Source of the DNA: a virus
DNA length: 57,088 nt
Reading direction: 5' to 3' (one strand)
Virus record (IMG/VR): IMGVR_UViG_3300010232_000003
In this document: in pieces, positions 1 through 57,088 of the stretch
How positions within the stretch are numbered: the stretch's first letter is position 1
How the letters are laid out: each line of letters starts with the position of its first letter
Translations under genes and position numbers: made by a program
Notes under the pieces: generated by a model
Databases searched by the model: none
Told to the model about the DNA's origin: nothing
Seen by the model: the letters and a program-made list of their open reading frames with translations, nothing else

Positions 1-55
1 AGCGAGTCCAAACGGAGCCAGACACCGTCGTCACGTTCCAGCGGAGCGACGGACA
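1..55. repeat. Direct terminal repeat, left copy
   Basis: nt 1-55 are identical (55/55) to nt 57034-57088, read directly. Confidence 0.97.
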
Positions 56-1467: not shown

Positions 1468-4023
1468 TCATGTGAATGCTGCTATCGACGTTTGTTCAAA
1501 CCTCTCGACTTGCAACAAGTCCATTGTTGGTTTGAAACGATTCTTCCATAAATACGAGTACTCGGGAACTCTCAATTTCGGATTCTCGTCCGTCTCATGG
1601 TCATGCGGTTTACCGACGACATGGCTACATTTATAACAGTATCCTTCATTTGGTCGCTTGTCAGTGATACCGTTATCAACGGGTTCTACTTGGCTCTTAT
1701 CAGAGCCCCTTTTTAAATACGCGACTTTATCACCCGTCCTCACGGCGCCGCGATCACCTTCTCGCTCGATGATTTTCTTCGCCGCGCGTGCATGAGCCAT
1801 TATCGTCTCGTATTCGTCTGGCATCTGGTTCAATCGAGTATGTTGGACCATCTGTTCGTCGAATCGACCCGTGAATAACTTGTCCTTGTACTCTCTAACG
1901 ATCCCAGTCGTGTCGTCGCCACTGAGCTTCGCGTCGATCAAGTCCTCCTGGAAATCGACGATCGCGTCAGAGGTATTCGCTTTCACGCACTTAAACCCCT
2001 TGATTTTACGGTACGCACACGGACCGTCGTCGTACACCACGTCACCCGCGTACTTCTTCTTTCGATCCGTGATGTGGTACCGTTTCCACACGTCGTCGAG
2101 ATCCATCTCCATGTGGTCTCCAGGCGAGTTGAACACGTCGCGAACGTACGTCACGACGAAATCGTTGAGCTTCGACGCAGTTCGTTGCGCGACGCGCCGC
2201 GCCCGATAGCACTCCTCGAGGTCACTGATATCGAGATCGAGCTCGTTGTCAGGCCCGACTTCGTCGACGAAATCAGCGACGTACTCGTCGAACCCGTCCA
2301 TGTCCACGTCGGTGTTCTCGACGACGAGCTCGAATTGTACACTGTCCGTGTCCCCGTACACTACTTTCTCGACTTCCTCGAGGTTCTCCTCCGCCCAGAG
2401 CTTACACGCTGACGTGAGGTGCTGACCGATCTCCGTGATGTTCTCGCTCATCCCGGGCTCGTAGTACCGATGAACGGGTGACGCGGCGACGCCGAACATC
2501 GAGTTCGCGAGCACTTTGAGACCGCGGTCTTGGTTGTTACGGCGATGCCATTCCGTTGAGCCTTTACTCGCTTGTTTCTTGAGCGACTTGAATTCTTTAC
2601 GTAGCGACTCGATACCGTCGAGTGACCCCGCGATCTCTGACTCCACGATACCGGGTTTCACGAAATATCCGCGCGCTTTACCGACGTTGTCGAGTTGCCC
2701 CGTGGTCTCGTACGCGTCTTCGGGTTCCGGCCCGATACCAGTGATGATATCGGTTTTCGTGACGTCCTCGTCGAATCGCTGATTCGCCGTCTCGACTGCT
2801 TCGGTGATATCGTTTGTGTCGAGCCACGATTTGACACCGACGTTGAAATCCCTGATGATCGCGGGGTACATCCCACTGAAATCAGCTGTCATCACGTCGC
2901 TATACGTGCCTGGGATGGGCTTGAAGACGCGACCTCCAGGGAAGTCGTGTAGATCCCGATATTTGCCTTTGTCGTTGAACGATTCATCGTTGTGGTTAAG
3001 TATCGCGCCGTCACACGCTTTCCCCACGGCCATGTTGACTTGACCGCTATCGGTGTTGTACATCAACGTAGAGGGTCGCGTGTACCCACGTCGACAGATC
3101 CGGAACACGATACGAGTTAATCGGTATTTCTCGTCGATAGCAGCTGTGATACGAGCGTCCTCGACGTTGTATTCCTCGAGTGTCTCGCGATCGGTTTGGA
3201 ACCAGTGCCAGAGGACCTCGTAGCCCATCTCGTGGTCTTCTTCACTCATCGTTTTAGTCATGTCGACCTCGTCTTCACCGACTGCGTCGAGCGCGAACGA
3301 TTGCCGTTCCTCGCGGTTGACGTGCATGAATAAGTACTGTAAGTCGAGGTGCACGATCTCGAACTCGTCGTAGTAAATATCGTAGATTTGTTTCCTGTTT
3401 AACACGTACATCCAGTCGAACGTCTCGGAGTTCCATCCGGCGAGCACGAAGTAGTCGTCGAGGAGATCGAAGAACTCCCTGAGCACGCGCTCCTCGTCGT
3501 CGTAACAGATGAATCCTTCGCTCCCGGCGCCATCGGTCCACGCGATGGACAGTATTTGCTTTGTAGCTTCCTCTGGGTCTGGGAACTCGCCACGCGGATC
3601 CACCTCGATATCGAAGTAGAGTATGTCTTCGGGTTCAGGTACATCGGCTTGGATGCCCTCGTCTATCATGACCCGCCGAGCGTACGGGATATCGGCTTCG
3701 AACGTCTCGTACTCGAAGCCGTGTTTGAAATCTCGGATGTCCCACGGGATCCCAGCTGTGACTTTCCATAACTCAAAGTCACCGTTCACGTGGCGATGCG
3801 TCTCGTCGCGTCGTACCCTGCAATCGTTGTCCGTAACGGATTGGATGAGCGCTGAGAGGTACCGTTTCCTGTCAGTCGAGACGTCACTCGCAGTCTTGAC
3901 ATAGCAATATGGGCGACACGGCGGATGGAACGCCTCGATCTCCTTGTCACCGTTCTCGTTCTTCGCGAGCGTTTCGAGCACGAGTTCCGGTTGAGTACTG
4001 TAGCGGAGATCGTAGCGTTGCAC
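1468..4023 (-). CDS. polB: Family B DNA polymerase
   Basis: Exo motifs FDIEV, GWNSETFDW, YNVEDA. Polymerase motifs DFSGMYPAII, KVLANSMFG, VYGDTDS. Confidence 0.95.
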   Translation of the reverse strand: MQRYDLRYSTQPELVLETLAKNENGDKEIEAFHPPCRPYCYVKTASDVSTDRKRYLSALIQSVTDNDCRVRRDETHRHVNGDFELWKVTAGIPWDIRDFKHGFEYETFEADIPYARRVMIDEGIQADVPEPEDILYFDIEVDPRGEFPDPEEATKQILSIAWTDGAGSEGFICYDDEERVLREFFDLLDDYFVLAGWNSETFDWMYVLNRKQIYDIYYDEFEIVHLDLQYLFMHVNREERQSFALDAVGEDEVDMTKTMSEEDHEMGYEVLWHWFQTDRETLEEYNVEDARITAAIDEKYRLTRIVFRICRRGYTRPSTLMYNTDSGQVNMAVGKACDGAILNHNDESFNDKGKYRDLHDFPGGRVFKPIPGTYSDVMTADFSGMYPAIIRDFNVGVKSWLDTNDITEAVETANQRFDEDVTKTDIITGIGPEPEDAYETTGQLDNVGKARGYFVKPGIVESEIAGSLDGIESLRKEFKSLKKQASKGSTEWHRRNNQDRGLKVLANSMFGVAASPVHRYYEPGMSENITEIGQHLTSACKLWAEENLEEVEKVVYGDTDSVQFELVVENTDVDMDGFDEYVADFVDEVGPDNELDLDISDLEECYRARRVAQRTASKLNDFVVTYVRDVFNSPGDHMEMDLDDVWKRYHITDRKKKYAGDVVYDDGPCAYRKIKGFKCVKANTSDAIVDFQEDLIDAKLSGDDTTGIVREYKDKLFTGRFDEQMVQHTRLNQMPDEYETIMAHARAAKKIIEREGDRGAVRTGDKVAYLKRGSDKSQVEPVDNGITDKRPNEGYCYKCSHVVGKPHDHETDENPKLRVPEYSYLWKNRFKPTMDLLQVERFEQTSIAAFT

Positions 4024-4055: not shown

Positions 4056-4814
4056 TTACTCCCATCGTGACCCGCCTAGCGACTCGCATTCACTCCGCCA
4101 TTCGCAATACTTACATCGACGATCCGTGACCGGATCAGTGTCCGGCGGTTCGTCATCCAGGAGATTCGCGTGATGCCGCGTTGTACGGATCTCGATGTCC
4201 TGCTCGACCTGCCCATCACGCTCGAAATCGAACACCATCTCGTCGAGCTCGTTACGCGTCATGTACGCGATCTCACCCGGGCAATCCATCGCCCACATAT
4301 ACGTTTGTAACTGATAGAGATGCGACGGTTTATGCCCATACCGGCGCCGCCAATCGATGTCTTTCGTGGTCTTCGTCTCCACGACTTTCAGGACGTCGCG
4401 CCCGTACTCCACGACGTCACCCGCGTGAGTAACTGCGTCTCGCGTACCGTCTCGACGCAACGTGACTTTGTCTATCTCGTATCGAGCACTTTCCTTGAAC
4501 ACCGTCCAATCCGACTCGCCAACGATCCGAGTATCGTCGTCGATGCGTATCTCGATATTCACGTCTTGCTTCACCCTGTCGTCGCCGTGCTCCCAGCGCA
4601 GCGCTCGCCCGTACACGTCCTCAAAGACGCGACCGAGCTCGAAGTACGGGCTCCACGAGTCCTCTGATTCGCGTTCGAAATCCCAATACCACCGGCGTGG
4701 ACAGTTACTGATATTGCTCGCGTGATACTCTCCGCGCTCGTCGCGGAATCGAGCGCCGTCGGGTTCACCGCCAGTATATTTCGACTCCAACCACCTGTCG
4801 ATCAAGTCGCTCAT
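4056..4814 (-). CDS. Cas4/RecB-like PD-(D/E)XK nuclease with four-Cys cluster
   Basis: N-terminal Cys (SNCPRRWYW), GESD..VVETKT core, QLQTY, C-terminal CKYCEWRSEC. Confidence 0.8.
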   Translation of the reverse strand: MSDLIDRWLESKYTGGEPDGARFRDERGEYHASNISNCPRRWYWDFERESEDSWSPYFELGRVFEDVYGRALRWEHGDDRVKQDVNIEIRIDDDTRIVGESDWTVFKESARYEIDKVTLRRDGTRDAVTHAGDVVEYGRDVLKVVETKTTKDIDWRRRYGHKPSHLYQLQTYMWAMDCPGEIAYMTRNELDEMVFDFERDGQVEQDIEIRTTRHHANLLDDEPPDTDPVTDRRCKYCEWRSECESLGGSRWE

Positions 4815-4818
4815 CTAG

Positions 4819-4861
4819 GAGCCGTGGACGGAGTCGAACCATCGAAACCCTAATCACGGCC
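4819..4861 (-). ncRNA. tRNA-like minihelix (7-bp acceptor-like stem plus canonical T-arm, no D or anticodon arms)
   Basis: RNA reads GGCCGUG-AUUAGGGUUUC-GAUGG-UUCGACU-CCGUC-CACGGCU-C. It ends 4 nt before the ATG at 4814. Confidence 0.4.
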
Positions 4862-5025
4862 CGAGTCGAAACTGTTGTCGAGTTCTGGTTCCGGGCGAGG
4901 TCCCAGCCTTCCCGGTTCCAACGGTTGACCAAACCACGCGTGTATTGCACCGGGTTTAGCACGACGGTGTCGCCGCGCGAGGTCAGGTGCCATGACCTAT
5001 ACATGGATTACTCAGCGAAGAGGTA

Positions 5026-5697
5026 TCAGTTTTTCTCCACCGAGTCTCCATCCGAACTGAGCTCGTCAGAGCTCGCGACGACCACCGCGGGTTCGACGTC
5101 GTAGTCCCGGACGTCGTTGAGGTACCCGTCGAGCTCGTCGACTGGGACTTCCCCGTCGTTCATCGCGACGACGTCCTCTGCGAACTCGATCGCTTTATCC
5201 GGGACACCTGAATCAGTCGACTCGGTTGACTCAGAGTTCCCAGTACTGTCACTCGCCTGGAGGGCTTGCTCAGTGGTGCCTTTGTAGTGCGGTGAGTTCT
5301 CCCAGACGTCTTGGAAGTCATCGGCTTGCTCGGTGCCTTGCCACTCGTCACGGGTAAGGATAGATGTCGCGTACGCGTTCATGTCGCGACCCGTGTTCGC
5401 TTTCACGGTGCCCTCGTACTCGATGAGCATCACGTCACCGATCGAAACCGCTTGGACGTCGTCTGTGAGCGAGGAGTGCGTTGGCGTCGCGACCTCGGTG
5501 CCTTTCTCGTGGTCACCGTTCCCGACTGAGCGAAGCGTCCCGACTGGGTGCGTGCCTCCGCCTGGATCTGTGTAGTCGTGTTTCTCGACGACGATCCCGA
5601 TGATCTCGTCGCCCTCGCTGGGTTCCCACCAGGGCGCGTAGTCTCCACCGCCACTGGACTTCCGTTCTTGTAACGCGTCGATTGCGTCGTCTGTCAT
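5026..5697 (-). CDS. Acidic hypothetical protein (possible OB-fold ssDNA-binding protein)
   Basis: Long ORF in the replication module with an acidic Ser/Asp-rich tail. Function not recognisable. Confidence 0.6.
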   Translation of the reverse strand: MTDDAIDALQERKSSGGGDYAPWWEPSEGDEIIGIVVEKHDYTDPGGGTHPVGTLRSVGNGDHEKGTEVATPTHSSLTDDVQAVSIGDVMLIEYEGTVKANTGRDMNAYATSILTRDEWQGTEQADDFQDVWENSPHYKGTTEQALQASDSTGNSESTESTDSGVPDKAIEFAEDVVAMNDGEVPVDELDGYLNDVRDYDVEPAVVVASSDELSSDGDSVEKN

Positions 5698-22661: not shown

Positions 22662-23675
22662 TTAGATACCAGTGAGGTGAACGACACCGGATTGACCGGA
22701 GCTATCCGCCTTGATCTCCGGCGCCATCGCCGCCATGACCTTGTAGTGATTCGTCATCCCGGAACCGCTTTGCCACTCGATCGTCTGGACGTCTTCAGCG
22801 ACGGCGAGCTCGACGACATCCGGGCTCGGGTCGACCATCACGGCTTCGCCGTCCGGGAGGAACGACGCGCGTCGAACCGCACCGATCTCCGGGTCGAACT
22901 CGTTGGTAACGCGTTCCCGGACCGTCAAGTTACCGTCTCCATCCGGGTCCACAGCGGATCGGAACTCGCGGTACTGCGTCGGCGCGACGTACATCCAGAA
23001 CCCACCAGCTGTGCGTTCATCGGTGTCGAGCGCGTCGAGCGACGACACGATGTCGTCTCGGATGTTCCCAGCGGTGCCCCAATCGGAGCCCGCAACGGTG
23101 TTCCGGTTCGGGTGCGTCGTGTACCCGTACAGGGTGAACGTGTCACCGCTCGAGTCCCGAACCGTGGGGTCCCATCCCTGGAACAAGATACGCTCGAGCA
23201 TCTCCGTGACTGACACCGTGGCTTGCGCGACGCCATCAGTCCTGAGATCGTTCCCCATCCGACGGCTTGACTGTAGGTCTCGATCAGAGACCCGGAAGTC
23301 CTTGTGAACGATGGGGATCGGGACACCGGAAGTCGAATACGTCGGACGGTCTTCTTGTGACCGTGTCTCGCCGTCCATCGTGACGTCGGCGTCCGACATC
23401 TCACCGCCTCGCGACCAGAGATCGACTTTCGTCGCGAGACTGAGATCGCGCGTGAGACCCGCGTCCTGTAAGTCCTCGATCCCAACGGTGGTTTCTTGAT
23501 ACACCGATACCATCCGGTCGGAGAGCGTCTCCCACTCTTCTTCTTCGAGTGTCGTGGCGTTCGCAGCGATTTCACGGCGCTCCTCGACGTTCGCCATGAA
23601 ATAATCCATACCGACGCCAAAGGCGCCATCGACCGCTTCTTCACCGGTGTCGATGTTTGCTCCAGTAGCGCTCAT
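22662..23675 (-). CDS. Major capsid protein (HK97 fold, encapsulin-like)
   Basis: 337 aa. Position after the protease/scaffold genes. Resembles the linocin/encapsulin-type capsid family. Confidence 0.8.
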   Translation of the reverse strand: MSATGANIDTGEEAVDGAFGVGMDYFMANVEERREIAANATTLEEEEWETLSDRMVSVYQETTVGIEDLQDAGLTRDLSLATKVDLWSRGGEMSDADVTMDGETRSQEDRPTYSTSGVPIPIVHKDFRVSDRDLQSSRRMGNDLRTDGVAQATVSVTEMLERILFQGWDPTVRDSSGDTFTLYGYTTHPNRNTVAGSDWGTAGNIRDDIVSSLDALDTDERTAGGFWMYVAPTQYREFRSAVDPDGDGNLTVRERVTNEFDPEIGAVRRASFLPDGEAVMVDPSPDVVELAVAEDVQTIEWQSGSGMTNHYKVMAAMAPEIKADSSGQSGVVHLTGI

Positions 23676-36953: not shown

Positions 36954-37028
36954 CGTCACCTGTCCTTCGCGCTTCAGCCAGGTGAGCGGCTGGGATCGAA
37001 CCAGCTGCCTTCCATGTACACGTAAGGC
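36954..37028 (-). ncRNA. T-arm-containing structured RNA element in the leader of the HNH gene
   Basis: RNA: GCCUU-N12-AAGGC, then A, then GCUGG-UUCGAUC-CCAGC, then a 9-bp hairpin CG(C)UCACCUG..CAGGUGACG stacked on it. Confidence 0.3.
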
Positions 37029-41127: not shown

Positions 41128-42008
41128 TACGACAAATCGGGTTCCCTGCCACGGACTCGATCGCTCAAGATATGAATCTGGCCATTCCCAGTGTGATAAC
41201 TGTTATTCATCACGGTGACGTGTGAATACCCATAGGCCTCGACGAAGTCGTCTTGATCGGGCTCGTGGTTGTCGTGGGACAACCCGAGACAATGCCCGAT
41301 CTCGTGTAGCGTCGAGTTAATCGAGTACCCGAGCCCGCCGTAGTGCCGTTCACGGATACACGCGTCGTCTCTCCATGGCTCGTGGTCGACTGGACCATCG
41401 AGCTTGTGGAGGTTCACGACGCAGTAGTGCCCACCGCCCTCCCCGTACACCCCGGGAAGGTGACCGATGAGCGCGTTCGCGTGCTTCGCTCGGTTCTCCG
41501 ACGTTAATTGGTGCCAGTAGTACTCTTTGAACGCGACGAACCACGATCCGTGATGGTCACGAGAGTCTTTATCGATCGGTAACGGTTCGGGGTGGATGAC
41601 GCAGTCGACTTCGTAGCCCTCGCCCCAAGCTTCCTCGTAACAGTACTCGACGTAGGGCTTCGCCATCTTGCACGCCCACTCGCCGAGCGCGTCGCCGACG
41701 CGCCAATACAGTCGTACCTCGATGGTCTCGTCGCCAACGCCGCGATGCGGCGGGTCCACGCACGGGTTCGGTGGCCACGTGATGTCGAGCGACTCGTCGC
41801 TCGAGCGATTCACGTCCTCCGTCTCTTCTTCGTCGTCGTCGCTGGGTGGCGTGTGCTCCTCGACTGGAGGGTCTTCAGTCTCGTTAACGTCACTCTCAGT
41901 GTCACGCGTCTCTTCGACGTCCTGGTCACTACTAGTGTCGGTCTGGTCGCCGCTATCAGTGCGCCTGAACCGTTCGAGCAGCGCTCGTAGTAACTGGTAT
42001 AGGTTCAT
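41124..42008 (-). CDS. Metzincin-like zinc metalloprotease
   Basis: HEIGHCLGLSH fits HExxHxxGxxH. Trimmed to ATG 42008, which makes an ATGA overlap with the Ro60-like stop. Confidence 0.65.
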   Translation of the reverse strand: MNLYQLLRALLERFRRTDSGDQTDTSSDQDVEETRDTESDVNETEDPPVEEHTPPSDDDEEETEDVNRSSDESLDITWPPNPCVDPPHRGVGDETIEVRLYWRVGDALGEWACKMAKPYVEYCYEEAWGEGYEVDCVIHPEPLPIDKDSRDHHGSWFVAFKEYYWHQLTSENRAKHANALIGHLPGVYGEGGGHYCVVNLHKLDGPVDHEPWRDDACIRERHYGGLGYSINSTLHEIGHCLGLSHDNHEPDQDDFVEAYGYSHVTVMNNSYHTGNGQIHILSDRVRGREPDLSY

Positions 42009-43540
42009 GGCTCGTATGCTTGAATGTCGTCTAGTAAACTGTTCTCGGCGTGCCAGATATAATCCAACACGCCGTCGTTCCATCCCTGCAGTCTCGTGAC
42101 GCCCGGATAGTTCTCTGGGAACTTGATCTCGCCGTAACTCGCCAAGTCCACGATGTACAAGTACGGTTCCTCGGAGTGCATCTCGCGAAGCCTCTCCCAC
42201 GCACCACGGAACGCGTTCGGGTCGTTACCGTACCGCTGTCTCTCCCAGATCTGGAAATCAGTGAACACCACGACTCTATCAGGAACGACTTCCCCATCAG
42301 TAGACTCGTCCGCGATGAACTCGAGCGCCTTGTGAGCGAACGTGCTACTCCCGACATCCGTGGACACGATCGCTTCTTGCAACGAGAGCACACTGTTCTC
42401 GAGCGGGTCAACGGGGACACGAGTCGCTGTATCAGCGAACGCGATGACATCCGAGCGTCTCTGACCGAGCATCGCGCCGAACAACGCCGCGATCTCGACG
42501 CGACTGAGGTCACTCCGGTTCGACACCCGTTGTTGCATCGAGCCCGACAGGTCCACGAGCGTCGCTGTGTGTACGAGCTCGTCTGGCACGGTTTCACACG
42601 CGACGTTCACCGCGTTCTCGAGCCACTGGTGCGCGTAGCGATCCATCTCAACAGCGCCCTTGAGTGCTTTCCGCGCTTGGTAGAACCTGAACGGGTATAG
42701 TTGACTGTTCCGGATCCACTCGTCGCTCGCGTCCTCGAGGATTTCTTCACCAGTCAGCCCGGCTTCGAGCATGTTCCGTAAGTTCCGGACCCGAGCGAAT
42801 AACCCCATGTCGTCGAGTACGAGACGCCAGTCATTAGCCGTGACGTCGCCGTCTTGCCCAGCTGCACTGATGGTGTCTTCCCACGTACGTCTCTGGCTGA
42901 GAGACTGTACGTCTGGATACGCGTCCTTCCCTCCCTTGGTTATCCTATTCGCGATCTCAGACTGTTCCTCGACCGGTTCTGGACTGTCCTCGTACCCATA
43001 TGGGTGCACTTGGTTGAACACGTCGTGCATCGAGACCGCTCGGTGCCCTTGTCGGTACTTCGCGTACTGGTACGCGTCGAACGACGCGTCCTCGATCACG
43101 TCAGCGATGGCTCGTTTCAAGACCCATGGAACCGTCGCGGAGAAATCACCCGGACCGTCACCAGCAACGGTGTTGTTAAACGCGAGCGTCGTGCAGAGCT
43201 CGTCAGCTCGATCGATCACGTGGCTCGCGTATCGTCGAACGTAGTGCTTCGCGTCGTCGTGGCGCGCGCTGAGCACGAGTAATACTTGCGGGACGTCTCG
43301 AACGTATGCGTCTCGTCGCGCCCACGCAGCGAGTCGCAACGGGAACTCGGGATCCACGTTCGCAGCTGCTTGGAAGCGCTCGACGAGTTTCTCGAGCGAC
43401 TCCGAGTCGTCCTCGTAGTACGTGTCCTCGAGTAAGTTAGTAATCGTGACCATTCGAAGCGCTTCACGTGGGTCACTGATCTCGTGGCTATGGCCACCAG
43501 CGAGGTTCCGCGCTTCTGTTTTAGACGAGTTCAAGTCCAT
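42005..43540 (-). CDS. Ro60-like TROVE-domain protein with C-terminal vWA (MIDAS) domain
   Basis: Trimmed to ATG 43540. NLAGGHSHE, YQYAKYRQGHRAVSMHDVFNQVHP, LFARVRNLRNMLEAGL, QLYPFRFYQA, LVDLSGSM. Confidence 0.75.
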   Translation of the reverse strand: MDLNSSKTEARNLAGGHSHEISDPREALRMVTITNLLEDTYYEDDSESLEKLVERFQAAANVDPEFPLRLAAWARRDAYVRDVPQVLLVLSARHDDAKHYVRRYASHVIDRADELCTTLAFNNTVAGDGPGDFSATVPWVLKRAIADVIEDASFDAYQYAKYRQGHRAVSMHDVFNQVHPYGYEDSPEPVEEQSEIANRITKGGKDAYPDVQSLSQRRTWEDTISAAGQDGDVTANDWRLVLDDMGLFARVRNLRNMLEAGLTGEEILEDASDEWIRNSQLYPFRFYQARKALKGAVEMDRYAHQWLENAVNVACETVPDELVHTATLVDLSGSMQQRVSNRSDLSRVEIAALFGAMLGQRRSDVIAFADTATRVPVDPLENSVLSLQEAIVSTDVGSSTFAHKALEFIADESTDGEVVPDRVVVFTDFQIWERQRYGNDPNAFRGAWERLREMHSEEPYLYIVDLASYGEIKFPENYPGVTRLQGWNDGVLDYIWHAENSLLDDIQAYEP

Positions 43541-43542
43541 GG

Positions 43543-43794
43543 TTAGAACCTCTCGTCCTCCGCGGTGAACACGACGCCGTCCTCGACGACTTCGACTGTC
43601 CCAAGAACGTATTCTTCCTCGATGGTTTTCTCCGTCGTGACGATGAGCTCCGGGATGGTCTCGACGCCGAATCGATCCATCGCTTGACGCTCGATGGACG
43701 CTACGTCGTCCTCGCTGAGCTCGGATCTCGCGTCGCTCGGGACGTGTAATCGTGGCTCGTCGTCTTTCTTGACCTCGACGTTGAAATCGTTCAT
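43543..43794 (-). CDS. Small acidic hypothetical protein
   Basis: 83 aa. GAGGT lies 10 nt upstream. Stop is 2 nt before the Ro60-like start. Confidence 0.6.
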   Translation of the reverse strand: MNDFNVEVKKDDEPRLHVPSDARSELSEDDVASIERQAMDRFGVETIPELIVTTEKTIEEEYVLGTVEVVEDGVVFTAEDERF

Positions 43795-43869
43795 TGGTAT
43801 GTACCTCGGATGAGTGGGAACCGGGTGTTAGTGTCTTATGCCGTGTTAGACCACGTTGCCGTGCTGTGC

Positions 43870-43934
43870 ACGACAAGTCGCGATTCGAACGCGAGTCACT
43901 CGCGCTAGATGCGAAGTAACCGGTTCCCTTGCCG
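43870..43934 (-). ncRNA. 65-nt tRNA-like element U2 (acceptor stem, T-arm, 7-nt loop AUCUAGC, vestigial D region)
   Basis: CGGCAAG/CUUGUCG (one G-U). UCGCG-UUCGAAU-CGCGA. UUCGC-AUCUAGC-GCGAG. Confidence 0.35.
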
Positions 43935-44035
43935 AGTGCGCCGGAGCCCGTCGTGTGCCCGCGAGTCCTCCAGGTCCGCACGACGGCACGCGGTCACTGG
44001 ATGTGTCCCTTCCGGGACGGCGAGCTGTTTTCGCT

Positions 44036-44143
44036 CCGGCAAGTGAGAACGGAGGGACTCGAACCCTTCGTCGTTCCCATAAGCCCGGGTGAATCCGTGT
44101 CAGGGTGTTCGGGAGCTTTCGAAGTAACTGACACGGTTGCCGG
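44036..44143 (-). ncRNA. 108-nt branched tRNA-like element U1 containing an acceptor/T-arm minihelix
   Basis: Outer stem CCGGCAA/UUGCCGG. 9-bp hairpin CCGUGUCAG..CUGACACGG. Minihelix GGGAACG-ACG-AAGGG-UUCGAGU-CCCUC-CGUUCUC-A (44044-44078). Confidence 0.35.
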
Positions 44144-44147
44144 GCAG

Positions 44148-44222
44148 TTGCGAGGGATGGACTCGAACCATCGGTTTCACGGGCATGAGCCGTGCGGAGT
44201 AGCCTAGCTGTCCTACCTCGCA
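44148..44222 (-). tRNA. tRNA with anticodon CAU (Met, or Ile2 if modified)
   Basis: Hand-folded cloverleaf: acceptor UGCGAGG/CCUCGCA, U8, D-loop with GG, anticodon arm CACGG-CUCAUGC-CCGUG, T-arm GAUGG-UUCGAGU-CCAUC, discriminator A. Confidence 0.85.
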
Positions 44223-44249
44223 TCGAGTGTAAGTTAAACACGTAACGGT

Positions 44250-44258
44250 ATAAGTCTT
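44250..44258 (-). promoter_or_regulatory. Class-A TATA-like box driving the tRNA / ncRNA / Ro60 operon
   Basis: ATAAGTCTT on the plus strand. The tRNA 5' end lies about 27 nt downstream. Confidence 0.6.
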
Positions 44259-44264
44259 TCTCTG

Positions 44265-45407
44265 TCAGTTATCATAGAGGTCCTCGAACGACTCCGGTGG
44301 CTCGTCAGTTAAGCTCCGCGACTCGGGTGGTTCATCGTCCGATGGCGGCTCGATATCGAAGTCACTCAAAGACGGCCCATACTCTCCATAGTATTCCCGC
44401 ATCGCGGTTACGCGCTTCTCGAATTGACTGCGAAAGTATCGACCAGTATCGTTCACGTCCACGATACGAGCGTGGTCACCGTTCTTCGGTCGTAGCGCTC
44501 GCCCGATGACCTGGATTTGCTTGACGTCGCTTTTCCCTGCTTGCGCGAGAACGATAGCGCTAATGTTCGGGATATCGACGCCCTCCCTTAATAGCGTCGA
44601 GACGAGGATATCGAGGTCACCGTTTTGGAACTCGTCGAGTGTATCCTGACGGATCTTAGTGGTGTCAGCGCCGTGCATGAACTCGGCGTTCGTATCAGCG
44701 ACTCGACTCGTCGCTTGCAACGCGCTGATGAACTCGCGCCTCGATTGCGCGTCGTCGAAGTCAACGGCGTCAATAGGATCGACGTCTCGGTTCAGTGCGT
44801 ACTCGAGGAGACGCCCGTGCTTGATACGATCCACGTTAACCAACACTTGGTACCCCAGGTTGGCGAGCTCAGCGGTTTTCGCCGCGACCGCGCGGTTCCT
44901 CGTCGCGGTGAGACTGATACAGCGACGGTACGCGTCGTGATACGCTTCACCTGTATTAGCGGTGTCGACACGACCGTAGTCTCGAGGGTCGATGACGTCG
45001 AATCGCGGTTCTGAGAGATACCCGGCGTCGATCATTTCCTCGGCGGTAACGGAGTGCGCCTCGCCGCCAACCGCGCCCTCGATCTTGAGCTCCTCGCCCT
45101 CGATACGGCGCCACGGGGTAGCGCTGAGCCCGACACGCATCGCGACGTTTAAATCCATCCCGATGTCGTGCATTGTGTCCGCCGCTGATGTCCTGTGACA
45201 GTTTTTTGTCAAGATATTATCAACAAAGAAGTTGTGATTGTTTTTTACTTCGATGTCGTAGACACGTTCTCGTCCGACTTTTTTGACTGTACGGACTGTA
45301 GTTCGATTCGCATCGCCATCGCGTACAGCTCGGGCTGCGCCTTCTTCAACATTTGACTCGCTGTCCATGCTGCTTTCGTGTGAATTGTCGCGTGACATGA
45401 CGTACAT
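44265..45407 (-). CDS. C-terminal intein fragment fused to the C-terminal half of an SF2 helicase
   Basis: ..VKKVGRERVYDIEVKNNHNFFVDNILTKN then CHRTSA. GLSATP motif III. Helicase C-domain motifs. Confidence 0.8.
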   Translation of the reverse strand: MYVMSRDNSHESSMDSESNVEEGAARAVRDGDANRTTVRTVKKVGRERVYDIEVKNNHNFFVDNILTKNCHRTSAADTMHDIGMDLNVAMRVGLSATPWRRIEGEELKIEGAVGGEAHSVTAEEMIDAGYLSEPRFDVIDPRDYGRVDTANTGEAYHDAYRRCISLTATRNRAVAAKTAELANLGYQVLVNVDRIKHGRLLEYALNRDVDPIDAVDFDDAQSRREFISALQATSRVADTNAEFMHGADTTKIRQDTLDEFQNGDLDILVSTLLREGVDIPNISAIVLAQAGKSDVKQIQVIGRALRPKNGDHARIVDVNDTGRYFRSQFEKRVTAMREYYGEYGPSLSDFDIEPPSDDEPPESRSLTDEPPESFEDLYDN

Positions 45408-56927: not shown

Positions 56928-57088
56928 ATGGCACTCATCCACATCAGTGCTCGACTCGACGAAACCGATCGCGTCGTCGTCACGTACGACTCCGTTCGAA
57001 GCGACGAGCACCAGACGCGGAGCGGCACGGTGGAGCGAGTCCAAACGGAGCCAGACACCGTCGTCACGTTCCAGCGGAGCGACGGACA
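56928..57088 (+). CDS. 5' part of the junction-spanning hypothetical ORF
   Basis: ATG 56928 lies 1 nt after the previous stop. The frame continues through the terminal repeat to TAG 150-152. Confidence 0.5.
   Translation, partial: MALIHISARLDETDRVVVTYDSVRSDEHQTRSGTVERVQTEPDTVVTFQRSDG
57034..57088. repeat. Direct terminal repeat, right copy
   Basis: Identical to nt 1-55. Indicates circular closure or terminal redundancy. Confidence 0.97.

What the first reader, a model, noticed from the sequence alone, without database searches (positions are those of the whole stretch)
4819..4861. tRNA-like acceptor/T-arm minihelix ending 4 nt before the start codon of the Cas4-like nuclease
The RNA reads GGCCGUG-AUUAGGGUUUC-GAUGG-UUCGACU-CCGUC-CACGGCU-C, then CUAG, then AUG. 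The loop, G53 and C61 fit the T-loop consensus, and the acceptor-like stem is 7 bp with G1-U72. The element lies at the 3' end of a 211-nt structured non-coding gap inside an otherwise tightly packed operon. I found no partner sequence that would complete a cloverleaf. One hypothesis is that it serves as a tRNase Z / RNase P processing signal. Cleavage there would release a nearly leaderless downstream mRNA from a polycistronic transcript, or would define an RNA 3' end.
Basis: partly seen in the sequence, partly recalled or inferred. Interest (0 to 1): 0.6.

Follow-up and report, generated by a model that had tools for sequence, protein, structure and literature searches.

The report
tRNA top-half mimic before viral Cas4 gene
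A 43-base RNA fold that copies only the upper half of a tRNA sits 4 bases before the start codon of a nuclease gene in an uncultured virus of salt-loving archaea. It most likely tells the host's tRNA-trimming enzymes where to cut the viral message, but no RNA data show this yet.

Summary
On the minus strand, 4861-4820 forms a 7-bp acceptor-type stem, an 11-nt linker and a canonical T arm. Then come discriminator C (4819), CUAG, and the AUG of a Cas4-like gene.

It is not chance. Canonical T arms are expected about 0.001 times per kb per strand. The window has four, all on the transcribed strand.

It is neither a tRNA gene nor an att site:
- ARAGORN and Rfam find no cloverleaf.
- No haloarchaeal tRNA in 185,579 species genomes carries this 3' end.
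- The complete 96%-identical relative has no integrase.

Distant relatives with the same gene order (223-aa gene, then Cas4, then PolB) carry tRNA-like elements in the same slot. One is another armless minihelix and two are intron-bearing cloverleaf-like genes.

The Cas4 start has no Shine-Dalgarno sequence and no nearby promoter box. tRNase Z cleavage after C4819 would leave a 4-nt leader, which counts as leaderless in Haloferax. In the cultured halovirus HGTV-1, four real tRNA genes end 1-4 nt before ORF starts.

Best reading (0.45): a t-element-like processing signal. The main rival is a tRNA gene relic.

Earlier notes of this scan report similar top-half mimics in other haloviruses.

The parts
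4820..4861 (-). tRNA top-half minihelix: 7-bp acceptor-type stem (4861-4855 with 4826-4820), 11-nt linker (4854-4844), 5-bp T stem (4843-4839 with 4831-4827), 7-nt T loop UUCGACU (4838-4832)
   Evidence: Sequence read. Own scanner gives 7/7 and 5/5 pairs. Shuffle expectation 0.05 per window. Identical in G001 except one linker base.
4819..4819 (-). Discriminator-position C. The predicted tRNase Z cut is 3' of this base.
   Evidence: Position inferred from tRNA geometry; cleavage not shown.
4815..4818 (-). CUAG spacer. This would be the whole 5' leader of the Cas4 mRNA after cleavage.
   Evidence: Sequence. A leader of 0-5 nt counts as leaderless in H. volcanii (PMC4983044).
4056..4814 (-). Cas4-like PD-(D/E)XK nuclease gene, 252 aa. 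The AUG at 4814 is supported by full-length 252-aa homologues.
   Evidence: Pfam PF12705/PF01930 just below cut-off. PHROG 1706 at 2.5e-10. 41 homologues, the closest covering 100% at equal length.
4862..4885 (-). Hypervariable patch that abuts the 5' end of the element (83% identity to G001, with a 4-nt indel)
   Evidence: The indel also cuts the 79-aa ORF 5004..4765 to 52 aa in G001, so the gap is non-coding.
4886..5025 (-). Rest of the 211-nt non-coding gap. It has no T run of 4 or more (so no archaeal-type terminator) and only a weak TATA-like box, GAGTAATCCATGTATAGG, at 5013-4996.
   Evidence: Sequence. Comparison with the promoter-box families of this genome. Fold z -0.70.
5026..5697 (-). 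Upstream acidic 223-aa gene with its own promoter box ACACTTTTTATCTTAC at 5739-5724. This is the likely source of read-through transcription into the gap.
   Evidence: Homologues lie upstream of Cas4 in L010, L011, L014 and L016 (tblastn).
1468..4023 (-). Family B DNA polymerase gene downstream of Cas4, with its own promoter-like box GAGTAAGATTTACATA at 4061-4046
   Evidence: Pfam PF00136 at 3.4e-25; upstream sequence.

Best explanation
The element is a tRNA-derived top half (acceptor stem stacked on a T arm, with no D or anticodon arm), transcribed as part of the RNA that runs from the 223-aa gene, or from a weak promoter in the gap, into the Cas4-like gene. It works like a haloarchaeal t-element. 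Host RNase P cuts 5' of G4861 and host tRNase Z cuts 3' of C4819. This separates the upstream message from the Cas4 (and possibly PolB) message and removes a 12-bp helix that would otherwise sit 4 nt from a start codon lacking a Shine-Dalgarno sequence. The product is CUAG-AUG..., effectively a leaderless mRNA, which is the main translation mode in haloarchaea. Shown: the fold, its tRNA-type features, its strand, its position, and the occurrence of tRNA-like elements in the same slot in relatives. Inferred: transcription through it, both cleavages, and the effect on translation.
For: (1) Canonical 7+5 bp top half with the T-loop consensus, on the sense strand only because of two G-U pairs. (2) It is far above chance: 0.05 strict minihelices expected per window and 0.00085 T arms per kb per strand. 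(3) In 10 distant loci the only three canonical T arms all lie on the sense strand between the 223-aa gene homologue and Cas4. L016 1104-1141 is another armless minihelix (5+6 bp). L011 2861-2979 is a tRNA-like gene with a 45-nt intron that ends 15 nt before Cas4. L014 2044-2147 is a third. (4) 35 of 36 top-half pairs are kept across window, L011 and L014 although 8 of 12 pairs differ on both sides. (5) The element's 3' end lies 4 nt from the AUG. A random placement within the gap would come that close in roughly 3-4% of cases (my estimate). (6) The gap has no Shine-Dalgarno sequence, no strong promoter box and no terminator. (7) A 0-5 nt leader counts as leaderless, and 72% of H. volcanii mRNAs are leaderless (PMC4983044). 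(8) Haloferax t-elements are cut in vivo by RNase P and tRNase Z (PMC4326828, PMC6546412). (9) Two methanomicrobial archaeal RNase Z enzymes cleaved pre-tRNA variants lacking the D arm or the anticodon arm with Co2+; with Mg2+ only one of them did (PMC7479834). (10) In cultured halovirus HGTV-1, four tRNA genes end 1-4 nt before the next ORF start. The sequences for gp272 and gp271 were checked: 4 and 2 nt after the discriminator.
Against: There are no RNA ends or cleavage data. Sequence conservation is seen only in one 96% relative, where the whole region is 94-99% identical, so it has no discriminating power. Nearest-neighbour folding prefers an alternative inner hairpin to the T arm. From memory (Schierling et al. 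2002, not held here), H. volcanii RNase Z lost much activity in vitro when the D arm was removed. Relatives differ in layout: L011 has a Shine-Dalgarno sequence and a 15-nt spacer; L016 has its element 81 nt upstream with a TATA-like box after it. The leaderless-mRNA outcome is therefore not a conserved feature of the slot. This genome has only one such stand-alone element, so there is no genome-wide punctuation system here.
Confidence: 0.45

Rival explanations
1. It is a relic of a tRNA gene. Relatives keep tRNA or tRNA-like genes in this slot. Here a single internal deletion removed the D and anticodon arms. What remains is young debris that is not selected, whether or not enzymes still cut it.
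For: L011 and L014 carry full-size tRNA-like genes in the same interval. One deletion of about 35-75 nt would give this form. The 96% relative cannot show selection. A hypervariable patch lies next to the element.
Against: All 12 pairs and the T-loop consensus are intact. A second, independent armless minihelix exists in L016, whose Cas4 fragment is 52% identical. The element abuts a start codon that has no other visible means of initiation. L011's element has A33 and C1-G72, so even the full-size form may not be a decoding tRNA.
Confidence: 0.25
2. It is a tRNA mimic with a role other than cutting. Possibilities are a protective structured end for the neighbouring messages, a CCA-adding-enzyme or synthetase ligand, a decoy for host tRNA-binding factors, or a partner of the virus's own Ro60/Y RNA module.
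For: The top half is the part of a tRNA that the CCA-adding enzyme and several other proteins bind (general knowledge). The same genome has a Ro60 gene with tRNA-like RNAs at 42005-44258 (note e1-3277688), and a second minihelix-like fold lies at 44078-44045. In the window, G-1 can pair with C73 as in tRNA-His.
Against: The Ro60 module is 37 kb away. The gap has no Rfam Y RNA match. G-1 is C in G001. Nothing in the sequence points to a specific alternative ligand.
Confidence: 0.12
3. It is a DNA-level promoter or operator. The A/T-richer linker ATTAGGGTTTC lies 30-40 nt upstream of the AUG, where this genome's TATA-like boxes sit for leaderless genes. The flanking inverted repeats could bind a regulator.
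For: The linker is centred about 35 nt upstream of the AUG, within the range of the boxes seen before other genes. In G001 the single change makes the linker more T-rich.
Against: The linker does not resemble any of the box families of this genome. As DNA, the repeats match only 6/7 and 4/5, while as sense RNA they pair 7/7 and 5/5 through G-U pairs. A palindromic operator does not explain an exact GGTTCGANTCC T-arm sequence, which is otherwise found in this genome only in tRNA-type RNAs and at 37005.
Confidence: 0.08
4. It is an att or recombination site, that is, a copy of the 3' end of a host tRNA gene used for integration.
For: tRNA 3' ends are common integration targets (general knowledge).
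Against: GGTTCRANTCCNTCCACGGCT gave no haloarchaeal match among 185,579 species genomes. There were 13 bacterial matches. ARAGORN on the five checked (L017, L021, L023, L026, L027) called no tRNA at the match position. The complete relative G001 has no PF00589 integrase. The 5' acceptor strand is also present, which an att core would not need.
Confidence: 0.03
5. It is a chance hairpin that happens to resemble a tRNA top half.
For: The genome-wide shuffle p is only about 0.045 for the strict pattern.
Against: It lies in one of the few non-coding gaps, on the sense strand, with the exact T-arm core, and relatives carry tRNA-like elements in the same slot.
Confidence: 0.03

Closest known systems
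Haloarchaeal t-element: the tRNA-like structure upstream of 5S rRNA in Haloferax volcanii (Hoelzle et al. 2008, RNA 14:928; Hoelzle et al. 2012, Biochimie 94:940; reused to release icrRNAs, PMC4326828)
   Same: It is a tRNA-like fold with no decoding role, placed directly 5' of the RNA whose 5' end it defines. It is in a haloarchaeal setting and relies on host RNase P and tRNase Z.
   Different: This one lies in a virus and precedes a protein-coding gene. It is reduced to acceptor stem plus T arm with an 11-nt linker. No cleavage is shown.
t-elements of plant mitochondria and tRNA punctuation of animal mitochondria (Forner et al. 2007, PMC1920247; review PMC3790967)
   Same: tRNA or tRNA-like folds between coding regions of long transcripts, with mRNA ends made by RNase P and tRNase Z; in animal mitochondria this yields mRNAs with almost no leader.
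   Different: Those are organelle systems with mapped ends and many sites per genome. Here there is one site in a viral genome and no mapped ends.
tRNA genes abutting ORF starts in halovirus HGTV-1 (NC_021328; annotation read)
   Same: The same geometry: discriminator base, then 2-4 nt, then AUG, on the same strand within a gene cluster of a haloarchaeal tailed virus.
   Different: Those are full cloverleaf tRNA genes with anticodons, whereas the window's element lacks the D and anticodon arms. Processing has not been reported for HGTV-1 either (PMC13532342 does not mention it).
Acceptor/T-arm minihelix model substrates of RNase P, tRNase Z and the CCA-adding enzyme (from memory: McClain, Guerrier-Takada and Altman 1987; PMC7479834 tested single-arm deletions on archaeal RNase Z)
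   Same: The same 12-bp coaxial acceptor plus T-arm design, which these enzymes contact.
   Different: Those are laboratory constructs, while this is a natural genomic element. Whether haloarchaeal tRNase Z accepts a substrate lacking both arms is not known to me.

Membership tests
Canonical tRNA gene | Cloverleaf with D arm and anticodon arm carrying an anticodon | tested here: not met
   Only 11 nt lie between the acceptor strand and the T stem. ARAGORN makes no call at default settings, with or without introns. Rfam gives no tRNA match at E up to 10.
Canonical tRNA gene | 7-bp acceptor stem stacked on a 5-bp T stem with the T-loop consensus (G53, U54, U55, C56, R57, A58, C61) | tested here: met
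Haloarchaeal t-element | tRNA-like fold without decoding function, lying directly upstream of the RNA end it defines | tested here: met
   The fold is confirmed, it has no anticodon arm, and its 3' end is 4 nt from the Cas4 AUG.
Haloarchaeal t-element | Cleavage by tRNase Z (3' side) and RNase P (5' side) | not testable with these tools
   This needs end mapping or enzyme assays. The precedent is in PMC4326828 and PMC6546412.
Haloarchaeal t-element | Sequence or architecture match to the 5S-leader element | not tested
   Hoelzle 2008 and 2012 are not held. No haloarchaeal genome handle could be obtained.
Mitochondrial-type tRNA punctuation / plant t-elements | mRNA 5' and 3' ends coincide with the borders of the tRNA-like fold | not testable with these tools
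   No transcriptome exists for this uncultured virus.
attP / tRNA 3' fragment | Identity to the 3' end of a host tRNA gene | tested here: not met
   A pattern scan of 185,579 species genomes gave 13 bacterial matches and none in archaea. ARAGORN on the five checked called no tRNA at the match position.
attP / tRNA 3' fragment | Integrase encoded by the element | tested here: not met
   No PF00589 match in the complete 96% relative G001. The window itself was not scanned exhaustively.
Y RNA (YrlA-type) tRNA-like domain | Adjacent Ro60 gene and a long terminal stem that binds Ro60 | tested here: not met
   The Ro60 gene is at 42005-43981, 37 kb away. The gap has no Rfam Y RNA match, and no long terminal stem appears in the fold.

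The most novel reading that the evidence does not exclude
Haloarchaeal tailed viruses use tRNAs, and tRNA top halves stripped of their decoding parts, as punctuation marks. Host RNase P and tRNase Z cut polycistronic viral transcripts at these folds and thereby make leaderless mRNAs for genes that have neither a promoter nor a Shine-Dalgarno sequence. This would be an archaeal-virus counterpart of mitochondrial tRNA punctuation. The window's element would be the minimal form, HGTV-1's tRNA-ORF junctions the full form, and L011 and L016 intermediates.
Probability: 0.35. Interest if true: 0.7.

Novelty: new variant of a known kind. Interest (0 to 1): 0.5.

Why it matters
How internal genes of haloarchaeal operons get translated when they lack a Shine-Dalgarno sequence is still unclear, and most haloarchaeal mRNAs are leaderless. 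A virus-encoded tRNA top half placed 4 nt before a start codon suggests a simple answer for at least some genes: the host's tRNA-trimming enzymes cut out a new leaderless 5' end. If true, this would extend t-elements from rRNA maturation to viral mRNA biogenesis. It would give some viral tRNA genes a second job besides decoding. It would also offer a very small natural processing tag (43 nt) for Haloferax genetics. I found no paper in the held library that describes such elements in archaeal viruses. Earlier notes of this scan report look-alikes in other haloviruses, so this is one more member of a recurring, apparently undescribed class and not a one-off.

Tried and rejected
- **Completing a cloverleaf.** ARAGORN at default settings and with introns, and Rfam, find nothing. 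An alternative 5' strand GGCTGGG at 4908 pairs only 6/7, and its interior spans the variable patch. ARAGORN calls it only at a threshold that gives 252 calls in the window.
- **att site.** Rejected.
- **Protein-coding gap.** The 79-aa ORF 5004..4765 is cut to 52 aa in G001, both substitutions within it are non-synonymous, and it is basic in an acidic proteome.
- **Repeats of the gap elsewhere in the window or in the loci.** None found.
- **More copies of the minihelix in the window.** At relaxed criteria the count is not above shuffles (3 observed, 4.5 expected). Only 44078-44045 is credible, and it lies in the Ro60/Y RNA region.
- **T-loop motif matches in the distant, AT-richer viruses G002 and G003.** They lack T stems and are chance.
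- **Closer relatives.** IMG/VR, JGI metagenomes and species genomes gave only G001 and relatives of 36-52% identity. The phage collection has no relative.
- **Covariance model.** A MAFFT alignment of the four minihelices put L016 out of register, so I built no model and counted pairs by script instead.
- **The H. volcanii 5S-leader t-element for direct comparison.** Not obtainable.

Full report
**What is there.** The window is a complete, circularly assembled 57-kb genome; its first and last 55 nt are identical. It belongs to an uncultured tailed virus. The proteome is acidic (median pI 4.65; D+E 17% against K+R 10%; GC 56%). Many genes have TATA-like boxes about 27-40 nt before the start codon, and relatives carry intron-bearing tRNA-like genes. 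This fits a haloarchaeal host. The phage collection holds no cultured relative. The nearest record is G001, IMGVR_UViG_3300046051_000019 (56,428 bp); 62% of the window aligns to it at 94% identity.

- GGCCGTG (4861-4855)
- ATTAGGGTTTC (4854-4844)
- GATGG (4843-4839)
- TTCGACT (4838-4832)
- CCGTC (4831-4827)
- CACGGCT (4826-4820)
- C (4819), then CTAG, then ATG (4814)

The ATG opens a 252-aa Cas4-like PD-(D/E)XK nuclease. Its closest homologues have the same length and N-terminus, so the start codon is sound.

**Is it more than chance?** A script asked for 7/7 acceptor pairs, 5/5 T-stem pairs, a TTYRANY loop and a linker of at most 20 nt. It finds this one site in the window. Dinucleotide shuffles give 0.05 per window. 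The core GGTTCRANTCC occurs three times against 0.45 expected, always on the minus strand. A canonical T arm (G53, TTCGANY, C61 and a 5/5 stem) is expected 0.00085 times per kb per strand. The window has four, all on the minus strand: tRNA-Met, a tRNA-like RNA, one unexplained site at 37005, and this one. Two of the twelve pairs are G-U, so the fold exists only in RNA of the sense strand.

The rest of the gap is not unusually structured (z -0.70). It is non-coding: the 79-aa ORF across it is cut short by a 4-nt indel in G001. One caveat is that nearest-neighbour folding prefers a UCGA/UCGA inner hairpin (-18.7 kcal/mol) to the T arm (-14.2). The acceptor stem forms either way. Such programs do not score T-loop tertiary contacts.

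**What it is not.**
- It is not a tRNA gene. There is no D or anticodon arm, ARAGORN makes no call, and Rfam gives no match.
- It is not an att fragment. The 3' half pattern has no haloarchaeal match in 185,579 species genomes. Of its 13 bacterial matches, the five checked with ARAGORN lie in no called tRNA gene. G001 has no tyrosine integrase. The 5' acceptor strand is also present.
- It is not a repeat.

**Relatives.** In G001 the element is identical except for one linker base (G to T). A 24-nt patch directly 5' of it is only 83% identical and carries an indel. The whole region is 94-99% identical, so this says little about selection.

Distant relatives (Cas4 36-52% identical) keep the order 223-aa gene, Cas4, PolB. 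In ten such loci the only three canonical T arms all lie on the sense strand between the 223-aa gene homologue and Cas4:
- **L016 1104-1141.** Another armless minihelix: a 5-bp closing stem stacked on a 6-bp T stem, with the same loop TTCGACT. It starts 3 nt after a stop codon and lies 81 nt before the Cas4 AUG.
- **L011 2861-2979.** ARAGORN with introns calls it tRNA-Ala(UGC) with a 45-nt intron at 37/38, but it has A33 and C1-G72. A TTTTAAAT box lies about 25 nt upstream. It ends 15 nt before a TTG start that is preceded by GAGGTGA.
- **L014 2044-2147.** A tRNA-like gene 65 nt after the 223-aa homologue.

Across window, L011 and L014, 35 of 36 top-half pairs are kept, while 8 of 12 pairs differ on both sides. 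This shows that each is a proper top half. It does not prove common descent.

**Context of the start codon.** The 20 nt before the AUG contain no part of GGAGGTGA. The gap has no T run of four or more. Its only TATA-like sequence (5013-4996) matches the genome's box families poorly. In contrast, the 223-aa gene and PolB have clear boxes. Read-through from the promoter at about 5739-5724 into Cas4 is therefore likely, and the AUG would sit 4 nt behind a 12-bp helix.

**Mechanism proposed.** Host RNase P would cut before G4861 and tRNase Z after C4819. The downstream product begins CUAG-AUG.
- In H. volcanii, leaders of 0-5 nt define leaderless mRNAs, which make up 72% of mRNAs (PMC4983044).
- Haloferax t-elements, tRNA-like structures first found before 5S rRNA, are cut in vivo by both enzymes and are used as tools to release crRNAs (PMC4326828, PMC6546412).
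- Two methanomicrobial archaeal RNase Z enzymes cleaved pre-tRNA variants lacking the D arm or the anticodon arm with Co2+. With Mg2+ only one of them did. Bacterial RNase Z contacts only the acceptor stem and T arm (PMC7479834).
- Against this, I recall that H. volcanii RNase Z was sensitive to D-arm removal in vitro (Schierling et al. 2002). That paper is not held here.

**A test of a lead.** I checked the GenBank record. Four tRNA genes end 1-4 nt before the next annotated start codon: gp272, gp271, gp265 and gp264. In sequence, tRNA-Arg(tct) is followed by its discriminator, TCAA and ATG. tRNA-Arg(tcg) is followed by its discriminator, TT and ATG. The geometry of the window's element is thus the geometry of real tRNA-ORF junctions in a cultured halovirus. 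The recent HGTV-1 paper does not discuss processing. Full-text searches found no paper on tRNA-like processing elements in archaeal viruses.

**Verdict.** The element is a real tRNA top-half mimic, most likely tRNA-derived. The processing-signal reading is the best supported (0.45) but rests on position, analogy and precedent. A tRNA relic without selected function (0.25) is the main rival. Other notes of this scan (e1-5359753, e1-5354149, e1-3266353, e1-3432183) describe similar elements in other haloviruses. I did not test those, and they are not counted as evidence.

Noticed in passing
window 37005-36981 (minus strand): A fourth canonical T arm (GCTGG-TTCGATC-CCAGC, then CGCTCAC-C) has no 5' acceptor partner in the transcript. 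It lies just inside a 56-aa ORF that starts 27 nt after an AAGACTTAT promoter box, and it is conserved in G001 at 22997. ARAGORN with introns joins it to a 5' half 1 kb upstream (tRNA-Ile with a 985-nt intron), which looks like an artefact. It could be a tRNA 3'-half relic.
   Followed up: partly
window 44078-44045 (minus strand): A second minihelix-like fold (GGGAACG-ACG-AAGGG-TTCGAGT-CCCTC-CGTTCTC-A; 7/7 acceptor pairs, 4/5 T-stem pairs) lies between tRNA-Met and the tRNA-like CUA element.
   Followed up: partly
L011 2861-2979: An odd tRNA-like gene in a distant relative. ARAGORN calls it tRNA-Ala(UGC) with a 45-nt intron at 37/38, but it has A33 in place of U33, C1-G72, G3-C70 and a T7-C66 mismatch. 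A TATA-like box lies 25 nt upstream, and a Shine-Dalgarno sequence plus a TTG start for Cas4 lie 15 nt downstream.
   Followed up: partly
L041 (HGTV-1 NC_021328) 42266-52168: In the tRNA cluster of HGTV-1, small ORFs and HNH/LAGLIDADG endonuclease genes are interleaved with tRNA genes. Four ORFs start 1-4 nt after a tRNA 3' end, and two end 0-3 nt before a tRNA 5' end.
   Followed up: partly
window 4862 and 4819: In the window, G-1 can pair with C73, giving an 8-bp stem as in tRNA-His. In G001 the -1 base is C, so this feature is not conserved.
   Followed up: yes
window 4061-4046 (minus strand): A promoter-like box GAGTAAGATTTACATA overlaps the Cas4 stop codon and lies 23-38 nt before the GTG start of PolB. 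PolB may therefore also be transcribed on its own as a leaderless mRNA.
   Followed up: no
window 1-55 and 57034-57088: The first 55 nt repeat the last 55 nt. This is the terminal redundancy of a circular or permuted assembly, so the window is a whole genome.
   Followed up: yes
window versus G001, whole length: Only 62% of the window aligns to G001 by blastn (at 94% identity). The replication module is shared nearly intact, while other blocks are replaced, which indicates a mosaic genome.
   Followed up: no
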